NCBI GenBank assembly: GCA_000002445.1
Contig: CM000208.1
Coordinates: 2,976,001-3,040,000 of the forward strand
From: Trypanosoma brucei
Taxonomy: Eukaryota
Length of the DNA: 64,000 nt
Direction of reading: 5' to 3'
Part shown: piece after piece, positions 2,935-61,527 of the stretch
Layout: the number at the start of each line of letters is the position of its first letter
Numbering within the stretch: position 1 is the stretch's first letter
Notes under the pieces: generated by a model
What the model was told of the DNA's origin: nothing
The model's database searches: none
Seen by the model: only the letters and a program-made list of their open reading frames with translations
Translations under genes and position numbers: made by a program

Positions 2935-2970
2935 ACACACACACACACACACACACACACAGAGAGAGAG
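2935..2970. repeat. Compound (AC)13(AG)5 microsatellite.
   Basis: Direct read: acacacacacacacacacacacacacagagagagag. Confidence 0.95.
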
Positions 2971-8663: not shown

Positions 8664-10171
8664 TTGAGCGCCTGCATGAAGCGCAGGGGCCGTCAACACG
8701 AACGAGAAGATGATTGAGGAAAGGTGGGGGCGGGAGAACAAAAGTAAATGAGGGCCAACTAAAAAAATATTAATATTGACAGAGAATGCCGCAATAAGTG
8801 AGAGGGAATACAATAATGCATACAGGACGAACAAATAAAGCGAACGGTGCTGTCAGTTAGCAGTGATGGGAGCCCATTCTCACCATCAGCTAGGGAGAAA
8901 TAATGCCGCCCTGGACCGCCGGACGGAGACAAGACTGAACGAAAACAAAAACACATACAAGGGGGCGCTAATGTAAAACGATACACATGCAAAAACCGAA
9001 GGGGAGGAATCCCCCATTAGGATGATTTGGCGTGATGACGGGAGGCGCGTTTGTCCGAAAGACGCACGACCCCCAGAAAAAGAGGGTGAGAAAGAAGACA
9101 ACAACGACAAAATTGAATAGCGTTAAAGCAGAAAGGTGTGTTTTTGTGTTTTTTTTGTGTGCGATGATGGACTAAAGTATTGAAGTGAAAAATTTACAAG
9201 CAGGAGTTTGACCGGCATGCCACATCCCGTCTCATATCCCGTCGGTGTTACTTCACCCCTCGCGTGCTGAACACAAAAACAAAAGCTGTTGGGGTGCACA
9301 ACCAATCACCTTGACAAATATATATATGTATATAAAATATCCAACTAAAGCAACACACCATACAAACTGATAAAAGTGGAAAGATAACATAAATAAGCGT
9401 ATTAATAATTTCATTGCCGCCGAATACGGAAGGTCGATGAGGAAAGGACGGAGTGACGCGAAACGTTGACTGGATTCATTTTTATTCACCACAACTTGAC
9501 CATTCCGGTGGAAAGATCTTAACAAACAGGCAAACTGCTCCATACTCCAAAAGGTCACCCGCCGAGCCCCAATGATGCACCGCGCCATCCCCGCTAAAAC
9601 CCATAAGTGAGCCTCGGCGTCACACGCTCAAGGGAGTTATAAACCAAACAAACATACGCCACCACCCTCACAAAGTTATTTGGAGGCATCAATGAAGCGA
9701 AGACCTGAATTGTTTACCAAGTGCAAACAATCGACATTTCCTTATTCGCCGTGTCCCGCTCACGGCACGCGAGAGGTGGTGAATCTCCGAAAACAAAAAA
9801 AAAACAAAAAAGGAAAAACAAAACAAAAACGTCGCCAAGATCAGTAGCAAAAAACGATGGGTCTCAATCACTCACTGGAAAAGTAGCAGCAAGATAATTT
9901 CAGCAGTTGCACACACAGGAGCGTCCTGACATCCGCATAGACCTACCTTGTACTTTTATTCCCTACCCATGTTTTTTTTTCATCTGTTCTCCCTCCTTTC
10001 CCATGTCAGCAACGATGTTGAACGTAATAGTTTCACCGATGGAGGATCCTTCCCCGACATCAATAGTGATGTGCCACCGCTGTATTGGCATGATGGACGC
10101 GTGCACACACAGACACACACACACACACACACATCATTAGTGATGTAGACACTGCACATCCCCAAAAAGGT

Positions 10172-15954: not shown

Positions 15955-17988
15955 TCAACCCTGTGGTTTCCTCAGCTGCTGTGCGAGAGCAGCACGTTCC
16001 CGTCTGACTGCACAACCTGGAGAGCTTCCCCTTTTGGCAGTTGCTGACAACTTGACATTGAAATTGCTTCCATCACCAACGCTACTCACTCTGCGATGGA
16101 AGGTTTTTTGTGGGTCGCGCTGCGCACCGCTTGCTTCACTACGTGTCTGCACGGTAACGCCGCACGGAGGCACTACCGAGATGTCAGGTTTAGCTTCGTT
16201 TACATTGACTGCTGCACGTGCAGAGATGTCAGAAATAAAGCGTAATTCTCTTTCATAAGGAAGTTGCACTGCCAACGACTTGAGGGCATGCTGGAGGCGC
16301 TCAACTTCCTTCTGCAGTGAAGCAGTGATAACCGCATTCGACTTACGCTCTGCTAACCTTGCTTGTTCTCCATACTTCATATATACAATATGTCGCTCGT
16401 TCGCTCTCCGCCTTATCAGCTGCGTCACCTCGTCTTTTTCGGCCTCTTGCAATTGATGTCGGGCTCCACACTCGTGCATAGATACATACAACATGTTTCG
16501 AAACAACCTTTCCTCCTCCTCAATGCGTCCCCGTTGTCTTCTTAATAACTTGTTCATCACTAGTTTCCTTTGGAAAAGGCTTAGCATACAACGATAACTG
16601 AGCAGCGTACTCTCATATTCCTGCTTTATGCTCAACCTCCTTGTACTTTCGCGCTCCTGTAGAACAATTGTAGCAAAGCTAATTGCTTCATCTGTGTACA
16701 GCATTTTGTACTGTCTATTACACATACTTATGAAGAAGCCCGGGTTGTTCGCAAACATTGGATACCTCCTTTCTTCTTCCAACAGGTGTAGGACCTCCCG
16801 CGCGAGGTGGTTTTCTTCAACATACACAGCCCGCTGCCACAACTCTTTCGTCTGTAAGTACAGGAGTTTCATACGAAGTCCTGCGGCAGCCTCAATAGCC
16901 CTACGAACCGTATTCTCACTTTCTATCAATGCTGCCCCGCGAGGTCGCAGTCCTGTTGGTCGAATTCGCTGCTCTGATTCTCGCCCCACCCTTCGGTGCA
17001 GCACCGTCTCGGACTCGTTGTTTACAACCGATCGGTTTCTAGTTCCCATTCGTTTACTCAAACCGTCTGTGGAGGCGCAGCGGGTTCTCGGCGAGGGCGT
17101 GAACATGCTACTGCTGATGCTGGTGCTCATCCGGGGATGCTGCGCGGCAGAGGAACGGACTGTGGGTCTACCATTATCTGCAGAAATATGGGCTGATGTA
17201 CCGCGCTGCACCCGTGATGAATTCGTACGCCTGGCACTATTAACAGCCCTATGTAACTGGAAAATGTGCTGCGTCTCCTCTCGCCTCATCTGTTGCTTGC
17301 GAAGGGCCTCCCGCTCCCGTTCCCATTGCTCACGCTTTTCCTGCTCCCATCGCTTGCGGAGTTCCGCCTGGTGTTCTTTCTCGCGCTTCCTGAAAAACAT
17401 CCGCTGCTCTTTCGTATAGAGTGATGGTCGTACTCCCCGTGGTGTGCTAACGGAGGGCGCGCGTCGACCTGGCCGCTCTGCCTTCCGTAGTGCATATGTG
17501 TTGAGCTCTTCATAGATGCTGGTGGTTGCACAATGTGTGGGTACTTTACCTCCTTTCGCAACCGAACGGGGTGTGGTACTACCGCATCTGACCGAGCCCA
17601 CACCAAGCGGCTGACGCACTCGCAACGCCGTGTCGTATTTCCTCTTTTTCTCTTCGTTGGAAAGAATCTCATACGCTAGGGTAACGCATCTAAACCTCTC
17701 TGCTGCCGTCGGGTCGTGTAGATTTTTGTCCGGATGATACTTAAGGACGAGGGTTTTGTAAGCCTGTCTCACCTCCTCAATGCTACTGAAATCTGGAAGG
17801 TGGAGTGTCTGATAAAGTCGCCTTGATCGCTCAAGGTCATTGTTCATAACGCTCAAAGACACCGCCTTCCCCTCCCCTCCCAGTTTAGAGTTTCGACAGA
17901 TGCTTCTGATCCCTGTGATGGGGATAAGCACGGGAAGATGGAATAAAACAACAACAAAAACAAACGAAGCAACGAAGTCAAATGCCAA
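15955..17988 (-). CDS. J-domain (DnaJ) protein with a long C-terminal charged/coiled region (677 aa as ORF). The true start may be the internal Met (MNNDLERS) just before the J domain.
   Basis: J domain RRLYQTLHLPDFSSIEEVRQAYKTLVLKYHPDKNLHDPTAAERFRCVTLAYEILSNEEKKRKYD contains the HPD tripeptide. The plus-strand ORF 16628..17419 is antisense to it. Confidence 0.7.
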   Translation of the reverse strand: MAFDFVASFVFVVVLFHLPVLIPITGIRSICRNSKLGGEGKAVSLSVMNNDLERSRRLYQTLHLPDFSSIEEVRQAYKTLVLKYHPDKNLHDPTAAERFRCVTLAYEILSNEEKKRKYDTALRVRQPLGVGSVRCGSTTPRSVAKGGKVPTHCATTSIYEELNTYALRKAERPGRRAPSVSTPRGVRPSLYTKEQRMFFRKREKEHQAELRKRWEQEKREQWEREREALRKQQMRREETQHIFQLHRAVNSARRTNSSRVQRGTSAHISADNGRPTVRSSAAQHPRMSTSISSSMFTPSPRTRCASTDGLSKRMGTRNRSVVNNESETVLHRRVGRESEQRIRPTGLRPRGAALIESENTVRRAIEAAAGLRMKLLYLQTKELWQRAVYVEENHLAREVLHLLEEERRYPMFANNPGFFISMCNRQYKMLYTDEAISFATIVLQERESTRRLSIKQEYESTLLSYRCMLSLFQRKLVMNKLLRRQRGRIEEEERLFRNMLYVSMHECGARHQLQEAEKDEVTQLIRRRANERHIVYMKYGEQARLAERKSNAVITASLQKEVERLQHALKSLAVQLPYERELRFISDISARAAVNVNEAKPDISVVPPCGVTVQTRSEASGAQRDPQKTFHRRVSSVGDGSNFNVKLSATAKRGSSPGCAVRRERAALAQQLRKPQG

Positions 17989-20507
17989 TTGAAAGCCGAC
18001 TCGACGTTATCACTGGTGTTGGCTGCAGCCCTCTCTTTCTCTTTTTTTAAAAATTTTGTTTTCTTCTGCTCACGACCCCCAACTTTCGCGATGCCTTCTT
18101 GTCTCTACTGAGTCTTCGACTCCGCTTCCCTAGCTCCCGTCTTACGAGATGTGGCGTGTCTCCCCAACTCAGTTTTCTTTTACCACAACCATAAGTAATG
18201 TTCATACATTGGAACAAGAAGAGATACAACGAGAAGGGGGAAAGAAATGAATTAGAGAAAGAGAGATTTTCACGGGCAGTAAATACAACAAAGAATTTAA
18301 GAGTAAAACACTGTAAAGGATGGGTGAAAACGAGAATACCCCTCCCAAAACAACAACAACAAATATAATCTAATGGAACGCAAACGACAAACCGATGCCT
18401 TTCCCCCCACTGCTTATTTGTTCAACTGTTTGGTGGCTTCTTCATATCCTACGATTAAGCAAAACTAATGACAAAAAACGGATTGAAGAAAAAGTAAAAG
18501 GAGGAGGAGGAGGGAAATGATTCAAACGGGTTCCACCAAAAATATGCACAGGTCAACGTAGAGTCAATTTACAAAAGATGATAACAGGGGCAGCATATAC
18601 ATAATATTTATAATATATAGTATATATTATAGCTTATTTATTTATAAACGTAATTATATTTGCATAAATCTGCGACGGTTGCTGCACGCCTCACATGCGG
18701 TCAAAGGAACACAACAACACATCAACAAGACGCAACACAGCACGGGTACGTGAGAAGCGATAGGAAAAAAGTAAAACAAAAAAAAGGAAATAAAAACAGA
18801 ATGAAGTAAATTTTTTTTTTTAAAAAAAAAAAGAAGCCGAAAACTAAACAAAACAATGATGGAGAGACATATGCAGATAGACACAGTGATTGATGGAGCG
18901 ATGGACGGAGTCAAGTTACAGTTGTAAGGGAGATACAGAGTTCACTGTGTAAACATAAATATATACATATTTAAAGTATTTTTCCTTTTTTTTTTTTGCG
19001 ACACGTGCCTACACTATATGCTGCTGTCCGTCATATATAGGTGTTGTACCGAAGAAGAGAGTGAGCATTGGATGAAATATATATATATATATATAAAGAA
19101 GCAAAAACAAAAAAAAGTCTCAAACAAACATTGGGGGGGGGGAGGAGGGAGGGAAACCGTAAAGGAAAATATAACGAAAAAGATAAAACTGCTAAAAAAC
19201 GAAAGGGTATTTAAACCCCTTTTATTTACATACGACCGCGGCGGGGGCACCACAAAAAAAAAAACACTTTTTCCACCTTCAGCTTTCAGGTTATCATTAT
19301 CTTGTATTGCTATCGTTTTTATTATCTTTTGATTGCTGCTGCTGATGCAACCGCCCAACTTGGTAAAGGGGCGGGGTGTTTATCTGAATGCGTGTTTAGA
19401 ATGAAAAGAAACAGAAAGAAGGAAAAAAAAAAGAAGGGAAGGGAAAAGGTAAAGGTTTGGTGGTTATTACAACTCCGTTTTGGCACATGAAGGAAGTTGT
19501 GCACACTCAACTCGCCATCTCTTCCTCTTCTGTTATAAACAATACCAAAACAAAACAAGAAATATCAACACCAGTGAATATTAAAACGAAAAAAAAAAAG
19601 AGCAAACAGATAAAAGCAATAATTGAAAAGAAATCTATCCCACACAAATTAATGGAAAAAAAAACAAATCGCACTTGCCAATTCTTTGTTTTCTTTTGTT
19701 TTTTAAAAGAAAAGGCACAAGAGTTCAGGAGGAGTATGCAGACCAAAAGAAAAAAAAAACAACAAAAAGTATTGGCATACAACTCACCACACCATCATCA
19801 TCACCATTACAAGTTGGTAAGGGACTTCAAACAACTTCACATACCAAACTCTTCTTCCCATCCAATTTAATTCCATCGCGGTCACATCGTCACCGTTTTT
19901 TTTTTCTTTCGTTCTTATTATTTTCTTTTTTTCTTTTTTTGATATATATATATATATATTAAATTATTACTGCTATCATCATCCCACAGTTTGATGCTGT
20001 CACGGCCACCTGCGACGGCCTGACCATTTCGGTTCATAATACCCAAAACCAACAAAAAGCGTTATCATCATCGTTATTGTGCGAAGGGATTTGTGTGTGT
20101 GTCCTTTTTGCACGTGGGCTTCCTTTATTTTCCTCCTTCCACTCGCTACTTCTTCTTTCCAACTACTCATAAAAAAGGAGGAAGTAGTGCCTTCATGAGG
20201 AATAACGACAAGAATCGGCTAAAAACAAAAACAAAAACAAAAACAATAATAAAAACGAAAACAACAAAACAGAAAAAGGTCCGTAACGGACACAACACAA
20301 CGAAACGAAAAAAGGTCAGCATGAAGGCGCTTGTGCAAAGAGAGAAAAAAAAAAAGGAGGATCTGATAATAAAACTACGGGTAAAAGTCAATGTTCGAGT
20401 TCACAATATCAGCTTTCAGAAGCCGTATTTAACGACGTTTTTTTTTCCCCCCTCCTCTCTTTCTTTCTTTCTTTCCTTCTTTTTTTGGTTTTAGGTTTAT
20501 GAAAAAA

Positions 20508-20510
<3 letters not shown>

Positions 20511-20548
<38 letters not shown>
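20511..20548. repeat. (AT)19 dinucleotide microsatellite.
   Basis: Direct read: 38 bp of uninterrupted at-at. Confidence 0.95.
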
Positions 20549-20553
<5 letters not shown>

Positions 20554-23500
20554 TAAAAAAGTATGTAAATGACTGCTTGATATTCCCTGATCCATCTCGC
20601 GACTACTTCCCCCCTTCCTCTTTACCATTTTCGTCCTTTTTTTTTCTATTCGTTTTACACAACTTATTTTTTAAAAAAATTTTTTTTTAAAAATTAAGAG
20701 TCGTAAAGAAGACAAGCGAATATTAAAAGCACGAACATAACAACAGACGATTCACAAAATATTTTCTCCCTCCCGTTTTCGAAAAGTTGGGACACGAGGC
20801 CTAAACAACAACAACAAAAAAAAACATCATCGTTACAACGATGTTCCATGTGGCAAAAGGAAAACAAAAAAAAGAAGACAAAAACAAAAACAAAAAACAC
20901 AACCGCAACAATACCATGCGGAAGGGAAGATAGGAAAGTTCTTTTTTTTGAAATAATAGTAATAATAATAATTATTATTACTACTACTACTGCTACCATG
21001 GTGTCATCTCTGACATTTCTTGGCTTCCACATGGTATTGTTATAGTTGTTGTTGCAGTTGTGATATATATATATATATATATGTACCCATCTCAATTTAT
21101 TAAAATACAAGTCTAAAAAAAAATTATTATCGTTACTTCGTTTTGAACCTCACCCGTAATAAACCCTCCCCCACCACATTCTTTTCCGAGACGTACACCA
21201 CACCAAAACAAAAAACAAAAGACAAAAAACAAGAAGAAGAAGAGCATATCCACCCAACACTTACAAAATAAGAGAAGGGAGAAAAAAGAAGAAAGAAAAC
21301 AAAACAAAACAGAAGGAAAAAAATTCCCTTCGTAAAAATATGGAGTTATATTTATGTGCTTAAGGATGACCTTACGCAATTTCATTATAAAACAAATGCA
21401 ACAACGCATCCCTTTTTTTTTTTTTTTGCACTCTTTCTTCCACTTTGCTTTTTTAATTTTTTTACCGTACCACCTCTTTTACTACTTTTCCTGCAAATCC
21501 TATCTTTCTTTCTTTTCTTTTTTTTTTTAAATAAAAAACTTTTTGAAAACCTTTTCGCTTTCTCTTTCTCTTTCAATTTTATTTTTCTGTTTGCCACTGC
21601 TCCCATCACTTTTTTCTTTTTTACTTTTCTTTTCCCACGTTTGTATTTTCATCTTCTCACTTGAATGGAAACGGTTGCAAAAAAACATACACACGAACAT
21701 ATATATTATATTATATATATTATATATATAATTATATACTCAAAAAGTACAAATGTGTGTATATAGTATATATATATATATATTTATTTATTTATATATT
21801 GAAAGCGCAGCTCCCGCTATTGTAATTAAGGTAACGTCATGAGCTTATAGACAAGTGGAAAAGAGTTAATAAACGAATGAAGAGAACATAATTTTAGGAG
21901 ATGGAAACCATCATGCAGAAAATGACAAAACAGATAAAGAAAGAAAGAAAGAAAAGTAAGTAAAAAAAAAAGAGATGGTATGGATGGGGTGGTGGTGGTG
22001 AGAAATAAAACAACAGGAAGTAAAAGCAAAAAAAAAAAAATCAGGAGAAAATGAAGCGGTGGATGATCACAGGCGTGACTTGAGATCACACCCAAAATGA
22101 CACCGCCATATATACTTTCAACGACTGAATGGAGAAAAATAAAAAAGAAAATCAAGAAAAATAAAACCAATGCACAAATATATATATATATATATTTGCA
22201 TCACTCTTTTGTTTTGTTTACATCTGTCTCATGTGTACTTAAATACCCCAGCACGGTCTCTCGCACTTAATCAAACCTCCGACACGAATATGAAATATGT
22301 CAATAGATAATATCAGTTCTTCTTTTTGCTACACATCCGATTTCCACCTTCCCTTTTTCTCTTTTTTTTCTTTCTTTCTTTCTTTCTCTCTCTCTCTCGT
22401 TACACCAAACCCTCACATAATCCAAAACCACACAATAAAATAGAAAAAAGAAGAAGAAGGGAGAAACTAAAAAAAAAAAACAACAACCGAACAACAACAA
22501 CACCAACAAATAGAGGGTGCGTGTGTGGAAGAGAGAAAAGAGGGAGAGAGGAAATGGGGGAAAAAAAAGATTAACCATCAACGTTTCCAGATATATCTCT
22601 CTCTTTTTTTTTTTCCTTCTCCCTTTTTATTTTGATTTTTGTGCGCGTAGTCACTTAATATATGGTTTTCAGAAAAGCAAAAAAAAACAAAACAAAAAAC
22701 AACAACAACAGCAGACAACAAAAGAAGAAGAAAAATAAAAAAACAAAATCAAAAGGCACACATATCGTGCAAAAAAAAAAAAGAAACCCTTATAGAACAT
22801 CATATTCCCTTTCCTTATGCCACCACACCGTCACCTTCCCCCATCTGCATCTGCCTCCACCTCCGCCAATTAAAAAAAAAAAAGCAAAAACCAAAACCAA
22901 AACCAAAAACAACAAAAGACCATAAACGAAAAGTAAAATGAAATAAAGACTATAAATAAGACGAGACAAGAATAAAACAACAGGAGTGGCACCGGCAGCA
23001 TTACAAGTAAATATGAAATGGAGGGAAGGGGAGAGGGGTAAAATAAAAAAAAAAAAGGAAGGGACGCTCACGAAGGAGGGTTGGAGTTTGGATCTGGGAA
23101 TGATGTACTCTACAAACCAAAAACAACAACAACAACAACAACAACAACACACCACACGGAAATCATATGTGTAGTCGTCTCCACGTATTTAAACAGACGT
23201 GAAGAAGAAGAAGAGGGATTGAGGGATTGGTAAGAAGGGTTGCCCTCCCATCGACGCGCTGTTAAAATTAGAAGGACTTTAAAATCTCTCTTTTCTTTTC
23301 TTTTCTTTTCCTTTCTCTCTCTCTCTCTCTTTTGTTCTTATTTATTTATTTTTGCTTATTGTTCTGCTCCTACATATTAGCTCAATCACACACAGATATG
23401 TAAATAAATAAACGAATACACTAGTACATATATACATTCATATATATATGAATGTATATATGTATACCCTGCTCATTTCATTTTATTTTCTTTAAACCGT

Positions 23501-25635
23501 CAGCTTCAGCATTCTCAGTTACTCACGCATTCTTTATTTACTTCTCCTTGTTTTCATTGCGCTTGCGTTTGTATGTGGGATGAAAAGAATATAACAACAA
23601 TAACAATATTAATGGTAATAACACGTCCCAATAAACCACAACCAAAAACCAGTAAGCAAAATACAAATGGGAAAGGGGTGGAAAGAAAAAAAAGAAAACA
23701 CATTCGTTACAACAAACAGACGCACAAACTCGGAGTGTATGCACACCAAATGAAGCAAACTCAACGTAAAAGTCATACCGACCGAACAGCTGAAATAACA
23801 AACAAATCATCACACATTTGAAGTCAAATCAAAAACTAACGGCATCCATGAGCTTTTTTGCCCTTCCGCTCACAGTGTAGTGAGGAAACAAAAAAAAAAC
23901 AGGTAAGGGCACAACTGCATCATAGAAGTGAAGTGAAGTGAAGTGATGAGAGAAAGTTATAAAATATCTCTGCACTTCCCTCTCTGCCTACGTTCGTGAT
24001 CGGTGCAAGCGGAGTTTCGCAAACAAAATCAAAAAAAAACATAAAGTCAAAACAACACATTCAAAATGCACTCCCCTCCACTTTTTCTCTTTATTTCCTC
24101 CGGTTTTTATTTCATTCTGGTCACACATCCCAGTCTGTCACATCACATCACATTTCATTTGCCCCTTCGCTTATTATTTTTATTATATTTCCTCACCTAC
24201 ATTTTCCTCTTCTTTTTTTCTCATTAGTTATGTTTCTTTTTTTTTTTTCCTTGCTGTCTTCTACTTTTTCCATTCGCAGTGAAAGTAGTTTCCCCACTGA
24301 CGTATTTTTATTTTCTTTTCTTAATATAAGTATACCTATCATTAGGTATTTTGTCTGAACAAATATATATATATATATAACCGTACATATCCATACATAT
24401 ATATATATATATTTATTTATAAATTTTCTCTTACTTACATTTAGACAAAGTGGAAAATATCCCTCCCTCTCTCTTTTCTTATATTTGTTTTTGAGGTTCA
24501 CTCTTCGCCTATTATAATCACTGTTATATTTTTTGTTTTGTTTTTACCTACGTATCATGCGTGCCGACGGCAATGTGTAAAAAGGAAGGAAGTGAAAGGG
24601 GGGGGGGAATGATGGGCTTGAAAAATTTTTAGTTTTTCTTCTCATTTATTTATTTTTATCTTATTTATTTTTGTATTTTCCGGCTCACAGTTTCTTTTCC
24701 TTTGTAATTTTTCTTGAGCATGTGGCAGTAGTAGACATCGACCACGGGTTAAGTTTGTTCACACAATCACAAATGAAAGAAACTAAAAGAAACAGGAAAA
24801 AAAAACACCAATAATAATAATAATGGTAATAGTAATAACAAGCGAAAGACATAACTCGATTCTTTTGTAATTTCTTTTCCTTTTTTGCTTTTTCTCCACA
24901 CAGACACAGAACAACAGCTGCAACGACAATCATATCCACACACACACACACAAACAAACAAACACATAATATAAACAGTTGAAAGCAGGCACCAATGCCA
25001 TGCAGAAGGATGGAAAATGAAGATGGAATTGGGGTAATTAACTAAATAAGGATCACAAAACAAACAAAGACGCACACACAAACACATAAAGAAAGGAAAA
25101 AAAACAAAAGGAATATAACGGAGGTGTGGGAAGGAAAACATTAACGGGGTGGAGAGCCAAAAGTACATATAAATGAATGGACCCATATTCCTCTTTCTGT
25201 TTCTCCTTCCTTTCCCTCCGAGTTCAAAATGAGATTTTGGTGACTCATATATATATATATATATATTCTTTACATTTTTACCTTCATTTTCATCATGATG
25301 CGCGGAAAATAACATTAAAGGAAAACGGAAAGAAATGTATATACTCACACGCAAACTCATCTGGACGTAAACGTACGTGAAGGCGTCTTTTTTTTCCTTT
25401 TTCTTTTTTTAAATAAAGGAGGGGGCCCTTAGTTGGAAGTTTGTCTTCTCCCTTCTAATACCTGAAAACTTTACCTTTAAAGCCAACGTGCATTTCGAAA
25501 ACAGCTATCACAGCAATATTAAAGGGAGAAAAAAAAACAAATGAAGCAACGACAACAATAACAACACGTCCCCCCACTAACAAACAAACATCCGCGTAGA
25601 TAAACGCTAACACCTGCATGACGCTCCTCTACCGC

Positions 25636-28203
25636 CTACAGCGTTGGCATGCAGGAGTAAAAACTCTGAGCCCCACCTCGGTAGAAAACCCTTGGGGCTA
25701 AAGTTGCGGGATACGCCTGAAACGGATGTGCAAAACCATCAGAAGGTGTGGGACTCATAATTTCCCCACGACCCCGCGTGTACACGAGCCCTGCCGAGTA
25801 CATGTCCCGCCCATCCGACATTGAGCGTTGAGGTGGAGACATCATGCCTGGGAAACATGCCTGACTACTGATTGCCAGGCCGGGTGTGCCCATGGGAAGT
25901 TGTTGTGGTTGCTGCGGCGGCGGCGGCGGCGCACGCGTCATAATCATCGTGTCGGTTGGGGAACCGATATAACCGTAACCGCAGTGTGCACCACCAGTTG
26001 TTGCAAGTGGGAGCATAGGTTGACCACCAAGCGCAACAGCACCTGGAGAAGGTTGCGGATATGTATTGCCAGGGATCATCGAGTGTTCTACCAAACTCAT
26101 GGAGTTACTGTGTATCCCCTGCGTGTTACTCATGCTGCTGTGGCCCGTCGAACTTTGTCTTGGTTTCCGACTTCCTCCGCGACCCATACTACTCGGAGAA
26201 TGTGAACCATTAAAGTCACAGGGGAAACTTCCACCATACACAGCACCCGCCTCTCCCCACAGTGGCATGCCCATGCACTCCATTTTCTGTACAAGGTGCT
26301 GTCCATATACAGAGCAACGTATGGTGTGGAGGTGCGGCCTTATCTGCTCCGCAATGTGCTGCTGCTGTGCCTTTGTCACTTGCTGGAGTAAACGTTGGAC
26401 GACATAGTTTGCGTACTGATCCTGCATCATAAGCACGAGGTAGTTGCCATCTTCTGAAGCACCTAAAGGATGGGTGAGCGTCTCTACAACTTGCTGCAGT
26501 TCTTCTGCATTTGCCTTGATAATAGTTTTTTCGGCAACATTAGACGCAAATTTGCTACACGAAAGGGCATATACGTGCGGTATTAACTGAGTCACGAAGC
26601 GTTGTCGTAATTCCTCAGGCGCATTCAAAAGAGCATACTGCACAACATAATTTCCATACTGGTCCATCACGTACTCATGTACATTCTCGAGCACGGCTTC
26701 TAACATGGGGCGAATGTTCACTCCATGTGCTGTAGAACACCTCTCGAAAACGCACTGCAACACACGGCAACCGTACGGGTGACGCGAAAGCGCCTTTAAG
26801 TGCGGCATGAAGGAGTCCACCAACAGCTGCGTCTTCTCTGGGATGACTTCAATGAGTTTCTGGGCTACGTGGTTAGCGTTTTGGTCAAATATACATTCTA
26901 CAAGGCAATCCTTTAGCTCGAAGAGCACCTCCTCCCGCTTCTCCGGTGAGGCCTTTTCCAACATCTTCTGGATTACGCGGCAGCCGTACATCTGAAACGA
27001 GTACTCCTTTAACCTTCCGCTAACTTGCTTTATGAGTCGTTTGCACATGTCACTCTCAGTAGGTAGCATGTCCAACAACTTCTGTAAAACATAATTTCCA
27101 AATACGTCAATGATCAATTCATGTGTACGTGGAAACACCTCGTTGAAGATCGGTTCGATGTTCTCCGGATTATTTAGGAGACGTTGTACACAGCGGCTTC
27201 CGTCCTGATCCTTGCAAAGGGAAACAACCTGCAACCTGAATTCGTCAGAGACAGCAAGGGCATGATTCGATTCAAGATTATCGCGTGCTGTTGTCGGTTC
27301 TTCGTTTGTGAACCTGTCACCACCAACTTCACCGTTACTAGGCTGCTTAAATGCACCGTTCTTTTGTCCATAGTTTGACGTAGAACGGTTCCTGCTGCTG
27401 CCTGGTGCCCGTCGTGAGAGTGTATCAACTTGCTGAGGCTGCTGCCCACTGGATGTGTCCTGTTGCGTCAACGAGCCGTTTTGCATTCCTTCGCCGTTGG
27501 CTTTCATATTCGCGAGGTCAACAGCACCAACGTTTACACTAAAAGAACCGCTACTACCGGGTGCTGCGGAGGGTGGCTCGAGGGAGCCCATGGCCGAATG
27601 AAGCCGCTTGAAACCTTCCGTCTCCCCTCCTGTGGGAGCGGCGTCCCGCGACCCCCTCCGCGGCGGTGAGGCGCTCCCGCTGTTCAGCCTCGCCACTTCG
27701 CCGCAGAGGTCATGCCTTGGCGTGCGCTCTCCTACTGAAGTTCCTACTGCTGTGGAGCCCGTCACTTTAGTTGTGCCGCTGTCACCGACAACTCCGACAC
27801 CGTCTTGCGGTTGTGTGTTGGTGGCGGAGGTGCCACGTCTTCCTGCACCACTGCCACGTCTTCCGAAGTTATTGGAGCGTAGCGGAACAAGCATGCGCGG
27901 GTCACGGGGGTATTTGGAGTAATATTCCCGGTGATATTCCTCTGCATATCGGTACTCCTCCTCCGGGGGAACGTCCGCCTCAAGGCTACCAATACAAAGC
28001 GTCCCATCGGATGAAAACATGGTGAGAACCATAGGCGCCGTTTCAGCCCGCCGCACGTCACGCGGGTCGGCAAGTAAAGCCCCGCTGCCACTGAATATAT
28101 CGTCGGCTCCAGCAAGCCAATCTGCTTCACCGCTGCCTGGTGGCGTGTTTGATGAGACGGGTTCGTCCCAACCAGACATGTTTCGTGCTGCAATCCGTTT
28201 CAA
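25636..28203 (-). CDS. Pumilio/PUF-family RNA-binding protein (855 aa) with 8 Puf repeats and S/G/Q-rich flanks.
   Basis: Eight repeat cores are readable: FGNYVLQKLL, YGCRVIQKML, DQNANHVAQKLIE, PYGCRVLQCVFE, DQYGNYVVQYAL, KFASNVAEKTI, DQYANYVVQRLL, YGQHLVQKM. Confidence 0.8.
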   Translation of the reverse strand: MKRIAARNMSGWDEPVSSNTPPGSGEADWLAGADDIFSGSGALLADPRDVRRAETAPMVLTMFSSDGTLCIGSLEADVPPEEEYRYAEEYHREYYSKYPRDPRMLVPLRSNNFGRRGSGAGRRGTSATNTQPQDGVGVVGDSGTTKVTGSTAVGTSVGERTPRHDLCGEVARLNSGSASPPRRGSRDAAPTGGETEGFKRLHSAMGSLEPPSAAPGSSGSFSVNVGAVDLANMKANGEGMQNGSLTQQDTSSGQQPQQVDTLSRRAPGSSRNRSTSNYGQKNGAFKQPSNGEVGGDRFTNEEPTTARDNLESNHALAVSDEFRLQVVSLCKDQDGSRCVQRLLNNPENIEPIFNEVFPRTHELIIDVFGNYVLQKLLDMLPTESDMCKRLIKQVSGRLKEYSFQMYGCRVIQKMLEKASPEKREEVLFELKDCLVECIFDQNANHVAQKLIEVIPEKTQLLVDSFMPHLKALSRHPYGCRVLQCVFERCSTAHGVNIRPMLEAVLENVHEYVMDQYGNYVVQYALLNAPEELRQRFVTQLIPHVYALSCSKFASNVAEKTIIKANAEELQQVVETLTHPLGASEDGNYLVLMMQDQYANYVVQRLLQQVTKAQQQHIAEQIRPHLHTIRCSVYGQHLVQKMECMGMPLWGEAGAVYGGSFPCDFNGSHSPSSMGRGGSRKPRQSSTGHSSMSNTQGIHSNSMSLVEHSMIPGNTYPQPSPGAVALGGQPMLPLATTGGAHCGYGYIGSPTDTMIMTRAPPPPPQQPQQLPMGTPGLAISSQACFPGMMSPPQRSMSDGRDMYSAGLVYTRGRGEIMSPTPSDGFAHPFQAYPATLAPRVFYRGGAQSFYSCMPTL

Positions 28204-30982
28204 ACGTTCGTATCACTTTACGTAATCTCCCCACTTCGGTATTTCGTAAGATGTTTTTCTTTAGGTACCCCCTCCCCTTCCAATATCGTCTTGTTATGCG
28301 TTATAGGAACAGTTTCCGTCTCGGTGTTTGTTCTCACCTTTTCCCTTCTTTTGTTTCCCACCCTTTAATTTTCTAGGCGTTGGCTCCCCTCTGCCCCTTT
28401 CCCCCTTCGCTTTCGTTCGCCCGCTTCTCCTATATATACCCTGCACCCGAAGGAGTAACAACGGGGTCTTTGTCCCTCAACCTGCCTTTCGTCCCCCCCT
28501 CCTTTACTGTGTGGTAGCAACGCTAACGTACTTTTGTCGACTATTAATAATTATTTTTGCTTTGCCTGTTTTCTTTTCCCCTTCTCCCTCCTATGCACCT
28601 ATTTGAACGGCTCGCTGTATGTTTAATCGAGCGCGCACGAAGAGAAGGATGAGATAATAGCGATAGTAGTAAACAAGATCCAAGCCAATGCAGCATATAT
28701 ATATATATATATATATATAAAGAGGCGTTTACGACACTGCAATCCCCTCCCTTTCGCCATTTTTTTTTTGCATTCAGGATAGGCTGAAACTCCCATTGAA
28801 TTCACGCATGCACGCGACACACACACGAAAAAAAAAAATGAAATAAAAAAGAAAAGATTACTGGATCGCATGTATAATTAAAGAAATTACAGATCTCACA
28901 TCCTTTCTCGCTCACACACTCTCACATTGCTCTTTTCACTTCATCAACGGAGAGAACCGAACATCCGCATTCTGAGTTGTATTCCACCATTCACTGTTGC
29001 GATTGTAAGTGGGTGACGGTGGCACGCTTTCTCAAAAAAAAAAAATAATAATAATAAAATAATAATAATAATAATAATAATAAATAATAGCAACAACAAA
29101 GAAGTTGGAATTCCGTCTCCCCCCAAAAAAAATTCTTCCTCACTACCCCCTTGCCTCCGGTATAGAAAATTTCACACTCTCAAAAGATTATGGACAAATG
29201 AACACAATACAAGAGCACCTCTTCCTGTTAGTTCTCGCTTGGTTTCTACATGCAGTATTTTTTTTTTAAAAAAAAAAATGGGACGCCGCTATCGGTCACA
29301 GCAACAGGTGTAGACACAAGATGCGATTCGATATGCGGAAGGGTGAATCATGGTTTCTCATTTATCTTTTCATATCTTCTCGCGTGGCATGTTGTTAAAT
29401 AGTTTTTCCGTATTCGTCTTCACCATCCTTCAAAGTTATTCGCGAGAGAAAGCGAAACCTCTCAAAGAGAATAAGGAAAGACAGTGAATAGAAAGTTAAT
29501 ATAACAACACGCTATGTGTGTATGTGTGTGTGTGTGGGAGGGTGATACGAGGTAAAAACAAAAATGGTAAGGGCCATTTGTGAAGTGGCAACACGTTTTG
29601 GATTGCGTGCTTACACCGTATCCTCTCATTTTTACCACACAGCGATGTTAGCAACTCATGAACAGGAAGCAACAGCAACGAAGAAAAAAAAAAGTTACAA
29701 AAAAAAAAGGAAATTTCCCGCCCACCCCACCCTCTGCACTTCAGTTTTGCGACATCCCGCTTACATCCATCGGATCTCAGATGTACTGAAATGCTCAACG
29801 AACACCACCGGCTCTTGATTTGAATGGGAAGGTGCGGCAAGGCTGAAAAAGCAAACAAACAAACAACAGAAACTCAAGAAAGAAAAATGATAAACACACA
29901 CCTTCTGCCTTTCTTCACATACTGGTTTCAACATTCCTCAACTTACTCTTTTTTAAACCGGCAACGTGTATCAGCGACAAGAACAGGAAACCGGGACTTG
30001 AACAAAACACGGTAATGCCTGATTCGTAATGGTGTGGTTGATTATTCGTATATATGGATGCCTTCTTTTTTTTTTTTTTGAGGGGGATCCACAGTTTTCC
30101 CTTTTTGTGTTTTAGTATACCGAAATCCCACTTTCCTTCGAAATATTTTATTCTTTTAATATAATAAAGGTACAATAATGATGACATAACCAAAAATCAT
30201 GCCATCATCGTTTTACTCCCGGTTGCCCGCCATCCCAGAAGGGGGAAAAAGCGGTGAATGACCGACGTGAAGACTGTTTAAGTGAATCTACCGAAGATCA
30301 GCACGGGAGGAGATGTTCGACAATCCCAAAAAAAGCAGTTCCTCCTCTCCTCCCATTTCCCAATTTCTTATTTATTCCCTTCTAATTTTTCTCCTCATTC
30401 CCTTTCCTGACAGTTACGAGTCTCTAATGTTTATACACATAACATTCTGCTTAAAAAAGCTTCCGAATTTACAACAACCCACGTGACAGGCGTCTGCTTG
30501 GTAGATTTGGCGAGCATTATTCATTTCATTTTTTAAAAAAAACTCCTGAACGCATGAAAAGTCGTTTTCGCATTTGTGACACATGCTAAGACACCAGAGA
30601 AGAAAAACAAACAAACAAGCGCGCGCACACATACATACATACATACATACACAAACAAACAGACATCGCTCCCAAATATATCTGAGTGTGTGTGTGTGCT
30701 GGGTGCGCAAGCCGTGTCCAGCGCAAAACCAGCCACAACGAAACAAGGGCAGAAATAACGAGAACGAAAAATAAAGAAATCCTGTTAAGTGCGCGCTTAA
30801 AAAAGAAGAGGAAGGAAGAACAACAAGGCATGTTCATATATATATATATATATATATATTTACAGATATCGCACATCAACGCCCTTCTAAATTTATCATG
30901 TTCTCATTCTTGCCCACTTCCTACAGTGTTATGCGCTTCCCTCCCCTTCCTTCGGAAGCGGATTTTGGTAGCAATGTGCTGC

Positions 30983-32858: not shown

Positions 32859-33371
32859 TCACTTCTTCAGCTTCGCACCAACAGGGGCCTTACCAGCCTT
32901 CCTTTTGGGTGCTTCCTTCTTCGCGACGAGGGACTTGGTGCCGACCTTCGCTGCTACCTTCTTTGCCACGGCAGCCACCTTCTCTTCCTTGCTCTTCCTC
33001 TTGGCGGCGCGGCGCTTCTTTTCCTTCTGGACCTTCGCGTGTGCCTTCAGTGCCCGCTTCACGATGCGCTGCTCCTCAATGAGGAAGGCACGGACGATGC
33101 GGTCGCGTACCTGTTCGTGGCTCAACACACCACCGTATGGGCGCGAAGTCGTCTTCTGATGACGTGGGGCGAGACGCGCCTTTGTGTGGCGCAACGCCTT
33201 CGTGCCAGCGAGACGTTTGTGGCCAAGTACCCACGGAGTGTGTGGGCCCTGCGACCGCTTACCGCGCTTCTGCATCACGAGACGGTTTCCGGGTGTTCGC
33301 ACTAGGCGCATGCGGTTGCCACGCGTGGCGTAATGCATGCGCCGACGGTATTGCACACGGGGGCAAGACAT
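32859..33371 (-). CDS. RPL34: 60S ribosomal protein eL34 (170 aa) with a Lys/Ala-rich C-terminal extension.
   Basis: MSCPRVQYRRRMHYATRGNRMRLVRTPGNRLV...RPYGGVLSHEQVRDRIVRAFLIEEQRIVKRALKAHA matches the eL34 family (recalled consensus MVQRLTYRRR...TPGNR...RAYGG...VRDRIKRAFLIEEQKIV). I verified the ATG at 33369-33371 by hand. The ORF tracker's extension to 33560 is 5'UTR read-through. Confidence 0.85.
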   Translation of the reverse strand: MSCPRVQYRRRMHYATRGNRMRLVRTPGNRLVMQKRGKRSQGPHTPWVLGHKRLAGTKALRHTKARLAPRHQKTTSRPYGGVLSHEQVRDRIVRAFLIEEQRIVKRALKAHAKVQKEKKRRAAKRKSKEEKVAAVAKKVAAKVGTKSLVAKKEAPKRKAGKAPVGAKLKK

Positions 33372-33731
33372 CGCCTTCGTTATCTCCGTGCGCACAAGAC
33401 CTCCAGAGACTCCTAATCCGCCAGTATTTAAAAGAATGAATACAAAGATAAAGTGAACGAAACAGGAAGTAATCGTGTGAACAGTGGTGAGGAAGATGAC
33501 GTTATACACGAAAAGAGAGGTGCCCGTGCGGAGGAAGGGAGTGTATGTGCAAAGCATCAACGATATGACAGGAGGAGACCATACTGCCTACAAAAAGGAA
33601 GGTGGGGTACGTATCATTACCGGTGTGCACATGGCAGTCTCGCAATGTAGTGTGATTTGTAAATCCAGGAGAGAGAGACAGAGGGGAGGGGGCGTTTTAC
33701 TTGCGGATCTAATCGATCGTAACATTACTTA

Positions 33732-45920: not shown

Positions 45921-45921
<1 letters not shown>

Positions 45922-45959
<38 letters not shown>
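45922..45959. repeat. (TA)19 dinucleotide microsatellite, followed by a degenerate (TA/TG) tail.
   Basis: Direct read. Confidence 0.95.
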
Positions 45960-45965
<6 letters not shown>

Positions 45966-61428: not shown

Positions 61429-61461
<33 letters not shown>

Positions 61462-61527
61462 ATTACAAACAAGTCCACAAGACGAGTGCAGCAGAGTAGA
61501 CTAAATGAGAGAAGGGATTCCCCACAT

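What the first reader, a model, noticed from the sequence alone, without database searches (positions are those of the whole stretch)
17989..25635. 7.6-kb gene-free, extreme low-complexity stretch 3' of the PUF gene: giant 3'UTR or hidden ncRNA locus
No ORF above ~200 codons lies between the J-domain gene and the PUF gene. The few ORFs present (e.g. 19014..19358, 24767..25360) are low-complexity artefacts. Typical trypanosome intergenic regions are 0.5-2 kb, as in the lower half of this window. In a minus-strand polycistron this region is the 3' flank of PUF, which would imply an unusually long, homopolymer-rich 3'UTR of the kind associated with tightly regulated RBP mRNAs. Alternatively it could host snoRNA or other small-RNA genes that cannot be recognised by eye.
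Basis: partly seen in the sequence, partly recalled or inferred. Interest (0 to 1): 0.5.

Follow-up and report, generated by a model that had tools for sequence, protein, structure and literature searches.

The report
Giant non-coding tail of trypanosome PUF2 gene
The 7.8-kb "empty" stretch is a fast-evolving, low-complexity non-coding spacer downstream of the Trypanosoma brucei PUF2 gene, most likely almost all a roughly 7-kb 3' untranslated region, which is a known feature of trypanosome RNA-binding-protein genes and hides no detectable gene or small RNA.

Summary
The window is T. b. brucei TREU927 chromosome 10. Between the PUF2 stop (25636) and the true DnaJ ATG (17847) lie 7,788 bp with GC 0.35 and 17.6% homopolymer or microsatellite. 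No ORF of 200 aa or more is present.

The reference annotation does place one gene model here: the 197-aa ORF at 24767..25360 (EAN78642, inferred Tb927.10.12650). It is frameshifted in two sister subspecies, has no family match, and the Clayton lab labels it "3'-UTR of 12660?".

Published read counts over that ORF track PUF2 (r=0.82 across 38 samples; same slow decay) and not DnaJ. The annotated DnaJ 5'UTR of 329 nt fits exactly an AG at 18178 that follows a 51-nt pyrimidine tract. That caps the PUF2 3'UTR at about 7.3 kb.

Rfam, tRNA, C/D-box, tandem-repeat and folding scans found no small-RNA gene.

The PUF2-DnaJ gap is the longest in its locus in six Trypanosoma species (2.6-7.8 kb), yet it does not align between them. 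Four CCCH zinc-finger genes in the same window carry the same kind of gap.

Verdict: an ordinary member of the known class of multi-kb 3'UTRs on RNA-binding-protein mRNAs. Continuity over the distal 6.4 kb is inferred, not shown.

The parts
25636..28179 (-). PUF2 coding sequence (Tb927.10.12660, 847 aa)
   Evidence: Pfam PUF repeats at E=1e-47. The exact sequence equals EAN78643.1, 'pumilio RNA-binding protein', T. b. brucei TREU927. Orthologues in other trypanosomes are named PUF2.
18320..25635 (-). Putative PUF2 3'UTR at its maximal extent of about 7.3 kb. The distal end is inferred, not mapped.
   Evidence: The start is the base after the PUF2 stop codon. The distal end is placed about 142 nt upstream of the DnaJ splice acceptor, using the median splice-site to poly(A)-site distance from Kolev 2010. 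The region has low GC and low complexity. No ORF is conserved. Only the proximal 275-870 nt has transcript-level support.
24767..25360 (-). Annotated 197-aa ORF (EAN78642.1/XP_823470.1; inferred Tb927.10.12650), judged a spurious gene model inside the PUF2 3'UTR
   Evidence: It is in the collection as 'hypothetical protein, conserved', in a cluster of one member. GenBank accession order places it between DnaJ (EAN78641) and PUF2 (EAN78643). It has no Pfam match. It carries 6 frameshifting indels and 5-6 in-frame stops in T. b. equiperdum and T. b. gambiense. tblastn splits it across frames at only 70-76% amino-acid identity, although the DNA is 95-97% identical. The Clayton lab annotates it '3'-UTR of 12660?'. 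Its read counts co-vary with PUF2.
21243..22489 (.). Central 1.25-kb segment absent from T. b. gambiense DAL972; also the most indel-rich part in the comparison with T. b. equiperdum
   Evidence: The blastn alignment breaks at gap positions 3146 and 4394. The three-way MAFFT alignment is 100% gap in T. b. gambiense over 21448-22247. No Ns are present in the T. b. gambiense gap sequence.
18496..23698 (-). Span holding 12 sense-strand pyrimidine tracts of 18 nt or more, each followed by an AG within 5-116 nt. These are potential internal trans-splice and polyadenylation signals.
   Evidence: Regex scan. The tracts lie at 23680-23698, 23201-23218, 23045-23064, 23020-23038, 22527-22554, 22442-22466, 21936-21956, 21270-21299, 20337-20361, 19413-19449, 19133-19156 and 18496-18517.
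18216..18266 (-). 51-nt pyrimidine tract (88% Y) that most likely directs trans-splicing of the DnaJ mRNA. The first AG after it is at 18178/18177.
   Evidence: The distance from that AG to the ATG is 329 nt. This equals the DnaJ 5'UTR obtained by subtracting the Tb927.10.12640 figures in Mulindwa 2018 S2 Table: mRNA 3125 minus CDS 1893 minus 3'UTR 903 (the column meanings are my reading).
17848..18176 (-). DnaJ (Tb927.10.12640) 5'UTR, 329 nt
15955..17847 (-). DnaJ-domain protein coding sequence (630 aa, Tb927.10.12640)
   Evidence: Pfam DnaJ at E=4.7e-20. The ATG was located. The exact sequence equals EAN78641.1. The CDS length of 1893 nt matches the table entry.
23398..23483 (.). AT-rich palindrome; the only strongly structured spot in the gap
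   Evidence: Fold z-scores of about -5 on both strands. Sub-threshold miRNA-like Rfam hits of 31 bits or less, against gathering scores of 75-101. The equal signal on both strands points to a DNA palindrome, not an RNA gene.

Best explanation
The interval 17848-25635 is non-coding DNA inside a minus-strand RNA polymerase II polycistron of T. b. brucei TREU927 chromosome 10.

Polymerase reads through it. The 3' end of PUF2 mRNA is set by polyadenylation, which in trypanosomes is coupled to trans-splicing of the next mRNA. That next mRNA is DnaJ, with its acceptor AG at about 18178 after the 51-nt pyrimidine tract at 18216-18266. In the main isoform, nearly the whole interval (up to about 7.3 kb) therefore stays attached to PUF2 as its 3'UTR, giving an mRNA of 10 kb or more.

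The 12 or more internal pyrimidine-tract/AG signals must normally be ignored, as shown for other long 3'UTRs that depend on DRBD18. When they are used, they would give shorter PUF2 isoforms plus capped, polyadenylated UTR-derived fragments.

Functionally, the long low-complexity tail is expected to keep PUF2 mRNA scarce, through length-dependent loss before processing. It would also offer many redundant binding sites for regulatory proteins, in the form of U-rich, GU-rich, (AU)n and A-rich polypurine tracts.

Shown here:
- the non-coding nature of the interval;
- its composition;
- the conserved oversize of the gap across species;
- co-behaviour of the proximal 0.9 kb with PUF2 mRNA;
- the position of the DnaJ acceptor.

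Inferred:
- continuity of the UTR over the distal 6.4 kb;
- suppression of the internal sites;
- the regulatory roles.
For: Identity of the window. PUF2, DnaJ and their neighbours are exact matches to TREU927 proteins EAN78637-78644.

Non-coding nature.
- All 21 ORFs of 80 aa or more are broken by frameshifts or stops in T. b. equiperdum or T. b. gambiense.
- No ORF has a Pfam match above cut-off.
- tblastx against the syntenic gaps of four species gives only low-complexity scraps, while an EF-hand control gives E=1e-112.

Transcript evidence.
- In the Fadda 2014 raw counts, the fraction left 20 min after transcription block is 0.78 for Tb927.10.12650 and 0.85 for PUF2. The five neighbouring genes are at 0.04-0.17.
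- Read density over the ORF is 0.5-0.85 of that over the PUF2 CDS, in both total and poly(A)+ RNA.
- In the Mulindwa 2018 expression matrix, 12650 against 12660 gives r=0.82 (p=4e-10), while 12650 against DnaJ gives r=0.18.
- The same supplement annotates 12650 as '3'-UTR of 12660?'.
- The DnaJ 5'UTR of 329 nt derived from that table coincides exactly with the first AG after the 51-nt pyrimidine tract.

Comparison within the window. Gaps 3' of PUF2 and of the four CCCH genes are 2.9-7.8 kb, GC 0.31-0.35, 13-18% low complexity. Gaps after housekeeping genes are 0.2-1.5 kb, GC 0.42-0.47.

Synteny. The PUF2-to-DnaJ gap is the largest in its locus in T. brucei (6.5-7.8 kb), T. vivax (4.8), T. cruzi (5.2-5.3), T. 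theileri, T. melophagium (2.8) and T. grayi (2.6).

Literature.
- mRNAs for RNA-binding proteins and kinases often have multi-kb 3'UTRs (PMC6597758).
- RBP10 has a 7.3-kb 3'UTR rich in low-complexity sequence (PMC8982893).
- DRBD18 suppresses internal processing sites (PMC9380746).
- mRNAs longer than 3 kb are less abundant than expected, which was modelled as co-transcriptional loss (PMC4285177).
- PUF2 mRNA is at rpkm 7, about 0.35 copies per cell, and falls 25-fold together with the very long mRNAs after CTR9 depletion (PMC3332058).
Against: - No read, spliced-leader or poly(A) data were available for the distal 6.4 kb, so a single continuous UTR is not demonstrated.
- Twelve strong internal pyrimidine-tract/AG signals could be real processing sites.
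- Kolev 2010 reported 3'UTRs only up to about 6,000 nt among 1,902 mapped in procyclic forms.
- Read density over the proximal ORF is somewhat lower than over the CDS, at 0.5-0.85.
- The central 1.25 kb is missing in T. b. gambiense, and the gap accumulates about 3 times more substitutions than the flanking CDS plus 5% indel columns. Much of the sequence is therefore under little constraint.
- The equation Tb927.10.12650 = ORF 24767..25360 rests on accession order, step-10 locus numbering and the curators' note, not on a direct coordinate look-up.
Confidence: 0.65

Rival explanations
1. PUF2 has a short or moderate 3'UTR of about 1-2 kb. The rest of the interval is cut at internal pyrimidine-tract/AG signals into one or more independent trans-spliced, polyadenylated long non-coding RNAs, either functional or processing by-products.
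For: There are 12 sense-strand pyrimidine tracts of 18 nt or more followed by AG. TREU927 carries about 1,491 annotated lncRNAs, mostly intergenic and low in GC (PMC9200285; PMC10048164). UTR-derived transcripts are documented. The transcript evidence I found covers only the first 0.9 kb.
Against: Nanopore sequencing found that about 20% of annotated lncRNAs are really parts of UTRs. Comparable gaps after RBP10, DRBD12 and ZC3H22 proved to be single long UTRs. PUF2 mRNA, whose CDS is only 2.5 kb, behaves like the long mRNAs in the CTR9 data set. No block of the distal region is conserved even between T. brucei and T. vivax.
Confidence: 0.2
2. The interval hides snoRNA or other small structured RNA genes processed from the polycistron.
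For: Kolev 2010 found 27 cases of snoRNAs lying within 3'UTRs. The grumpy lncRNA, on the same chromosome, hosts a snoRNA. One weak C-box...D-box pair lies at 19804-19725.
Against: Rfam gives no hit at gathering score anywhere in the window. In E-value mode it gives only miRNA-like hairpin hits of 31 bits or less, against cut-offs of 35 or more. There are no tRNAs. Only microsatellites are present, with no tandemly repeated gene cluster. The C/D candidate lacks a terminal stem and arises from a (GAT)n repeat; 0.56 such pairs are expected by chance. Strong fold z-scores appear only at (AT)n palindromes and equally on both strands. Nothing is conserved between species.
Confidence: 0.03
3. Tb927.10.12650 (the 197-aa ORF at 24767..25360) is a genuine protein-coding gene specific to salivarian trypanosomes, so the interval is not gene-free.
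For: It is annotated as 'hypothetical protein, conserved' in TREU927. The stop-free run that contains it (213 codons) is longer than in any of 300 global shuffles. It is transcribed.
Against: The ORF is low-complexity with no family match. It carries 6 frameshifting indels and 5-6 in-frame stops in both sister subspecies, and amino-acid identity is only 70-76% at 95-97% DNA identity. It was not called in the T. b. gambiense or T. b. equiperdum annotations. Shuffles that preserve local composition reach its length in 2-4% of trials. Its RNA behaves as part of PUF2 mRNA, and curators marked it as probable UTR.
Confidence: 0.03
4. The interval acts mainly at the DNA or chromatin level, for example as an internal Pol II start or termination region with GT-rich promoter-like sequence, or as a replication origin, and not through its transcript.
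For: GT-rich tracts are strongly biased to the sense strand (37 per kb sense against 3.5 per kb antisense). The gap's size of 7.8 kb resembles the width of histone-variant-marked start regions (my recollection, not tested here).
Against: The same GT bias is seen in ordinary short gaps of this polycistron, for example the DnaJ 3' gap at 31.9 against 0. Both flanks are on one strand with no tRNA or strand switch. Reads over the proximal part follow PUF2 kinetics.
Confidence: 0.03

Closest known systems
RBP10 (Tb927.8.2780) 7.3-kb 3'UTR of T. brucei
   Same: It lies 3' of an RNA-binding-protein CDS and is about 7 kb long. It is full of low-complexity tracts, including (AU)n repeats and many pyrimidine tracts. 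The mRNA is of low abundance and developmentally regulated (PMC8982893; PMC9380746).
   Different: The RBP10 UTR length is supported by RNA-seq, ribosome profiling and Northern blots, and at least six regulatory fragments have been mapped in it. For PUF2, only the proximal 0.9 kb has indirect transcript support. PUF2 differs about 3-fold between bloodstream and procyclic forms, whereas RBP10 is bloodstream-specific.
Long 3'UTRs of ZC3H20/21/22, DRBD12, ZC3H32 and ZC3H8 mRNAs (the class of trypanosome RBP and kinase mRNAs with multi-kb 3'UTRs)
   Same: The same gene class, genomic layout and composition. Four CCCH genes in this very window show the same pattern. Literature.
   Different: At 7.3-7.8 kb, the PUF2 gap sits at the upper end of the class. 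The ZC3H20-22 UTRs carry 2-9 RBP10 motifs UA(U)6, whereas the PUF2 gap has none on the sense strand.
T. brucei intergenic lncRNAs such as grumpy, which has an embedded snoRNA
   Same: Low-GC, non-coding, Pol II-transcribed sequence next to an RNA-binding-protein gene on chromosome 10.
   Different: grumpy is a discrete spliced-leader-to-poly(A) transcript that hosts a snoRNA. No discrete transcript ends and no snoRNA could be shown here.
Trypanosomatid snoRNA gene clusters
   Same: They also lie inside Pol II polycistrons on the coding strand, sometimes within 3'UTRs.
   Different: No Rfam family was matched, there is no convincing box C/D architecture, and there is no tandemly repeated unit.

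Membership tests
Multi-kb 3'UTR of a trypanosome RNA-binding-protein mRNA | Lies directly 3' of an RBP (or kinase) CDS, on the same strand and within one polycistron | tested here: met
   PUF2 is identified by Pfam and exact accession match. All 16 genes are on the minus strand.
Multi-kb 3'UTR of a trypanosome RNA-binding-protein mRNA | No conserved protein-coding potential | tested here: met
   Every ORF of 80 aa or more is broken in a sister subspecies. There are no Pfam matches above cut-off. tblastx against four species is negative while the control is positive.
Multi-kb 3'UTR of a trypanosome RNA-binding-protein mRNA | Low GC and abundant low-complexity tracts (poly-U, pyrimidine tracts, (AU)n, polypurine) | tested here: met
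   GC is 0.346 and low-complexity sequence 17.6%. Microsatellites are listed.
Multi-kb 3'UTR of a trypanosome RNA-binding-protein mRNA | Continuous transcript from the stop codon to a poly(A) site just upstream of the next gene's splice acceptor | tested here: inconclusive
   The proximal 275-870 nt co-varies with PUF2 and shares its decay kinetics. The DnaJ acceptor is placed at about 18177. No data were available for the 6.4 kb in between.
Multi-kb 3'UTR of a trypanosome RNA-binding-protein mRNA | Confers regulation on a reporter | not testable with these tools
   This needs reporter constructs in bloodstream and procyclic forms.
snoRNA gene or cluster | Match to a known snoRNA covariance model, or box C/D or H/ACA architecture with a terminal stem | tested here: not met
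   Rfam gives 0 hits at gathering score. The best snoRNA-type hits in E-value mode reach only 16-17 bits. The single C...D pair lacks a stem.
snoRNA gene or cluster | Tandemly reiterated gene units, as is typical in T. brucei (my recollection) | tested here: not met
   Only microsatellites with periods of 2-20 nt were found.
Independent lncRNA gene (Guegan 2022 definition) | Its own spliced-leader acceptor and poly(A) site, length over 200 nt, low coding potential | not testable with these tools
   Low coding potential is met. Candidate acceptor signals exist. No transcript-end data could be reached.
Protein-coding gene (Tb927.10.12650) | Reading frame preserved among close relatives | tested here: not met
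   There are 6 frameshifting indels and 5-6 stops in both T. b. equiperdum and T. b. gambiense. tblastn hits are split across frames.
Dispersed repeat or retroposon remnant | Similarity to other copies elsewhere | tested here: inconclusive
   blastn of the gap against the other 56 kb of the window, with the low-complexity filter on, found nothing. No genome-wide or ingi/RIME reference search was possible.

The most novel reading that the evidence does not exclude
Length, not sequence, is the selected trait. An oversized spacer has been kept at the PUF2-to-DnaJ junction in every Trypanosoma lineage examined, while its sequence has turned over completely. It would act as a sequence-independent kinetic delay, or dosage limiter, for PUF2 mRNA maturation through length-dependent co-transcriptional loss. 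Its internal pyrimidine-tract/AG sites might also release an independent regulatory RNA.
Probability: 0.15. Interest if true: 0.5.

Novelty: already known. Interest (0 to 1): 0.18.

Why it matters
It matters little beyond annotation hygiene. The work argues that Tb927.10.12650 should be retired as a gene model and read as PUF2 3'UTR. It also places PUF2 among the trypanosome regulators with the longest 3'UTRs, at about 7 kb, comparable with RBP10.

The one modestly new point is comparative. The PUF2-DnaJ spacer is the longest gap of its locus in six Trypanosoma species, although nothing in it aligns between them. That pattern fits selection for a long, low-complexity tail and not for particular motifs. 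If confirmed, the locus would be a convenient natural test case for how 3'UTR length and internal processing-site suppression set the dose of an essential RNA-binding protein.

Tried and rejected
- Rfam on the whole window at gathering scores gave 0 hits. In E-value mode on 17.5-26 kb it gave only sub-threshold miRNA-like and hairpin hits at (AT)n palindromes.
- ARAGORN found no tRNAs.
- Tandem Repeats Finder found only microsatellites.
- A home-made box C/D scan found one stem-less locus produced by a (GAT)n repeat, which I judged to be chance.
- A sliding fold z-score scan gave signal only at palindromes and equally on both strands.
- blastn and tblastx of the gap against the syntenic gaps of T. 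vivax, T. cruzi, T. theileri, T. grayi, T. melophagium and L. infantum found no collinear conservation. Only the sister pair T. theileri and T. melophagium align, at about 73%.
- Motif counts showed no sense-strand enrichment for UGUANAUA, and there were 0 RBP10 motifs UA(U)6 on the sense strand.
- blastn of the gap against the rest of the window for dispersed repeats found none.
- I tried to obtain transcript ends from Logan contigs that carry the DnaJ gene (L008, L011). They have no spliced leader or poly(A) and look like genomic assemblies broken at repeats, so they are uninformative. An exact look-up of ORF197 found no contig on record.
- I searched for a published PUF2 3'UTR length. Jha 2014 is not held. 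The supplements of Clayton 2019, Antwi 2016, Kolev 2010 (which uses the old Tb10.389 gene names), Bishola Tshitenge 2022, Erben 2021 and Guegan 2022 either lack the row or are not held.
- No T. congolense orthologue surfaced in either protein search.
- I first mislabelled L001 as Lister 427. Its accessions show it to be T. b. equiperdum.


Full report
**What the window is.** The PUF ORF (25636..28179, minus strand), the J-domain ORF and their neighbours are exact matches to T. b. brucei TREU927 chromosome 10 proteins EAN78637-EAN78644. Orthologues of the PUF protein in other trypanosomes are named PUF2, and PUF2 is Tb927.10.12660 in the literature. All 16 large ORFs lie on the minus strand, so the window sits inside one polycistron.

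**Checking the observation.**
- The J-domain ORF listed from a TTG at 17988 really begins at an ATG at 17847, giving 630 aa. This equals EAN78641.
- The CDS-to-CDS gap is therefore 17848..25635, or 7,788 bp.
- No ORF in the gap reaches 200 aa; the longest is 197 aa at 24767..25360.
- GC falls to 0.30-0.37 per kb, against 0.45-0.54 in the flanking CDS.
- Homopolymers of 6 or more plus microsatellites cover 17.6% of the gap, and purine or pyrimidine tracts of 15 or more cover 11.9%. In coding sequence the homopolymer/microsatellite fraction is 0-1.7%, and R/Y tracts are absent from most CDS; the exceptions are the repeat-bearing WD40 gene (9.5%), DnaJ (2.6%) and HSP110 (0.7%).
- Only microsatellites with periods of 2-20 nt are present.

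First, the reference annotation is not empty here. The 197-aa ORF is EAN78642.1/XP_823470.1, 'hypothetical protein, conserved'. Second, the window holds two classes of gap, not one 'typical' class plus an outlier:
- Housekeeping genes are followed by gaps of 0.2-1.5 kb with GC 0.42-0.47.
- PUF2 and four CCCH zinc-finger genes (46813-48237, 52670-53620, 56498-57358, 61528-62370) are each followed by gaps of 2.9-7.8 kb with GC 0.31-0.35 and 13-18% low complexity.

**Is anything coding hidden in the gap?**
- None of ten ORFs of 100 aa or more matches a Pfam family above its cut-off.
- All 21 ORFs of 80 aa or more carry frameshifting indels or in-frame stops in T. b. equiperdum (L001) or T. b. gambiense (L002), or in both.
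- The annotated 197-aa ORF has 6 frameshifting indels and 5-6 stops in each subspecies.
- tblastn splits that ORF across frames at 70-76% amino-acid identity, although the DNA is 95-97% identical.
- tblastx against the syntenic gaps of T. vivax, T. cruzi, T. theileri and L. infantum returns only low-complexity scraps of 35 bits or less. An EF-hand control from the same locus gives E=1e-112.
- The longest stop-free run (213 codons) exceeds all 300 global shuffles. Shuffles that keep local composition reach it in 2-4% of trials, so the tract structure largely explains it.

I conclude that there is no real protein-coding gene in the gap.

**Is a small-RNA gene hidden?**
- Rfam gives nothing at gathering scores on the whole window.
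- In permissive mode it gives only miRNA-like hits of 31 bits or less, against cut-offs of 35-101. These centre on an AT-rich palindrome at 23398-23483 and on other (AT)n runs.
- There are no tRNAs.
- My box C/D scan found one locus (19804-19725) where a (GAT)n repeat mimics a C box. It has no terminal stem, and 0.56 such pairs are expected by chance.
- Fold z-scores below -4 occur only at palindromic repeats and equally on both strands.

Novel RNA classes cannot be excluded, but nothing points to one.

**Evolution.**
- Within T. brucei, the gap shows 1.8% substitutions and 5% indel columns against T. b. equiperdum. The flanking CDS show 0.55-0.69% substitutions and no indels.
- T. b. gambiense lacks 1.25 kb in the middle of the gap (window 21243-22489), with no Ns in its sequence.
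- Between species, synteny from PUF2 to DnaJ is conserved.
- The gap is the largest in its locus every time: 7.7 kb in T. b. equiperdum, 6.5 kb in T. b. gambiense, 4.8 kb in T. vivax, 5.2-5.3 kb in T. cruzi, 2.9 kb in T. theileri (including 1.2 kb of Ns), 2.8 kb in T. melophagium and 2.6 kb in T. grayi. Other gaps in these loci measure 0.2-2.8 kb, the largest being the one just upstream of PUF2.
- Nothing aligns between species except the sister pair T. theileri and T. melophagium, at about 73%.

So a long spacer is retained while its sequence turns over.

**Transcript evidence recovered from published tables.**
- GenBank accession order runs DnaJ = EAN78641, ORF197 = EAN78642, PUF2 = EAN78643. 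The same rule holds in T. b. gambiense and for EAN78638.
- Combined with step-10 locus numbering, this makes ORF197 = Tb927.10.12650 and DnaJ = Tb927.10.12640.
- The Mulindwa 2018 supplement confirms the DnaJ assignment. It lists Tb927.10.12640 as 'chaperone protein DNAj' with a CDS of 1893 nt, which matches the window exactly.
[quoted passage not shown]'.
- In the Fadda 2014 raw counts (headers), the bloodstream series II fraction remaining 20 min after actinomycin D is 0.78 for 12650 and 0.85 for PUF2. For the five neighbouring genes it is 0.04-0.17.
- Procyclic forms show the same split.
- Read density over ORF197 is 0.5-0.85 of that over the PUF2 CDS in total and poly(A)+ RNA. The poly(A)+ figures assume that the columns follow the order of the sample list.
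- Across the 38 expression values shown from Mulindwa file 14, 12650 against 12660 gives r=0.82 (p=4e-10), and 12650 against DnaJ gives r=0.18.

The proximal 275-870 nt of the gap therefore behaves as part of PUF2 mRNA.

**Where the next mRNA begins.**
- In the same Mulindwa table, the DnaJ row reads 1893 / 3125 / 903. I take these as CDS, mRNA and 3'UTR lengths, which leaves a 5'UTR of 329 nt.
- Before I saw that table, my scan had listed a 51-nt pyrimidine tract at 18216-18266. Its first downstream AG, at 18178, lies exactly 329 nt from the ATG.
- Kolev 2010 gives a median of 142 nt between a splice acceptor and the upstream poly(A) site, with an interquartile range of 123-178 nt.
- The most distal PUF2 poly(A) site is therefore predicted near 18.30-18.36 kb. 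That gives a maximal 3'UTR of about 7.3 kb and an mRNA of 10 kb or more.

This last step is inference.

**Mechanism.** By established trypanosome biology, a 3' end is defined by trans-splicing of the downstream mRNA. Everything between the stop codon and that coupled site becomes 3'UTR unless an internal signal is used.
- The gap holds 12 sense-strand pyrimidine tracts of 18 nt or more followed by AG.
- In RBP10, DRBD12 and more than 200 other mRNAs, such internal sites are kept silent by DRBD18. When they are used, they yield shortened mRNAs plus trans-spliced UTR fragments (PMC9380746).
- Long, low-complexity 3'UTRs are characteristic of mRNAs for RNA-binding proteins and kinases. They have been proposed to lower abundance and to provide many redundant, 'fail-safe' binding sites (PMC6597758; PMC8982893).
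- mRNAs longer than 3 kb are less abundant than their half-lives predict, which was modelled as length-dependent co-transcriptional loss.
- A-rich polypurine tracts in long UTRs correlate with translation efficiency (PMC12304876). The gap has 27 overlapping 15-nt all-purine windows per kb on the sense strand.
- ZC3H28 binds long low-complexity 3'UTRs and co-purifies with PUF2 protein.
- PUF2 mRNA is scarce, at rpkm 7 or about 0.35 copies per cell. It drops 25-fold together with the very long mRNAs after CTR9 depletion, despite a CDS of only 2.5 kb.
- PUF2 mRNA is about 3-fold higher in bloodstream than in procyclic forms.

**What remains open.** I could not reach read, spliced-leader or poly(A) data for the distal 6.4 kb. 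The alternative is a 1-2-kb UTR followed by separate non-coding RNAs, and I keep it at about 0.2. About 20% of annotated T. brucei lncRNAs turn out to be pieces of UTRs, and the analogous gaps that have been studied are single UTRs. Both points tilt the balance towards one long UTR.

**Comparison and novelty.** The closest known case is the 7.3-kb RBP10 3'UTR, and the broader class includes ZC3H20-22, DRBD12, ZC3H32 and ZC3H8. The PUF2 gap meets the testable defining features: position, lack of coding potential and composition. It is inconclusive on transcript continuity. It fails the tests for a snoRNA locus and for a protein-coding gene.

Specialists had already suspected that Tb927.10.12650 is PUF2 3'UTR, so I file the finding as already known, with low interest. 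The small new element is the conserved oversize of this particular spacer across Trypanosoma without any sequence conservation.

Noticed in passing
window 43919-46812, 48238-52669, 53621-56497, 57359-61527: Four consecutive CCCH zinc-finger genes lie at 46813-48237, 52670-53620, 56498-57358 and 61528-62370, on the minus strand. They are probably ZC3H35-38, which is my inference from the locus numbering; ZC3H36 = Tb927.10.12760 appears. Each is followed by a 2.9-4.4-kb gap of low GC (0.31-0.35) and low complexity, the same class as the PUF2 gap.
   Followed up: partly
window 59502-60002 (-) and 9253-9588 (-): Two further small ORFs lying in intergenic or UTR sequence are annotated TREU927 genes. 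EAN78653 (Tb10.389.0760, 'T. brucei spp.-specific protein') sits inside the gap 3' of a CCCH gene. EAN78638 (Tb10.389.1050) sits in the gap 3' of the DUF3648 gene. Like Tb927.10.12650, they may be spurious models.
   Followed up: partly
window 5978-6631: A 138-bp unit is repeated 4.7 times at 97% identity inside the WD40-repeat gene (3851-6652). It encodes 46-aa repeats. It explains the strong strand skew and the overlapping ORFs on both strands in this region.
   Followed up: no
window ~570-3850: About 3.3 kb 3' of the WD40 gene has no ORF of 200 aa or more, yet its GC is 0.48-0.50 with positive AT skew. This is a long gap that does not belong to the low-GC class. An ORF of at least 189 aa runs off the left edge of the window.
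   Followed up: no
window 21243-22489; L002: T. b. gambiense DAL972 lacks this central 1.25 kb of the gap. The break points lie in T/G-rich low-complexity tracts and there are no Ns. It is either a real length polymorphism or an assembly collapse.
   Followed up: partly
window 28180-30982: The gap upstream of PUF2 is also long, at 2.8 kb with GC 0.41. It is the second-longest gap of the locus in most species, at 1.1-2.8 kb. This suggests either a long PUF2 5'UTR or a long 3'UTR on the upstream 536-aa gene.
   Followed up: no
window 23398-23483: An AT-rich near-perfect palindrome gives fold z-scores of about -5 on both strands and the weak miRNA-like Rfam hits.
   Followed up: partly
window 6876-8663: UniProt names the methyltransferase-domain gene 'Small RNA 2'-O-methyltransferase', while the T. 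b. gambiense annotation calls it 'T. brucei spp.-specific protein'. The two labels are inconsistent.
   Followed up: no
window 32859-33557: The RPL34 ORF can be read as 232 aa from an upstream ATG, as it is in T. b. gambiense. It is called as 170-171 aa in T. b. equiperdum, T. vivax, T. cruzi and T. theileri, so the longer N-terminus is probably a mis-annotation.
   Followed up: no
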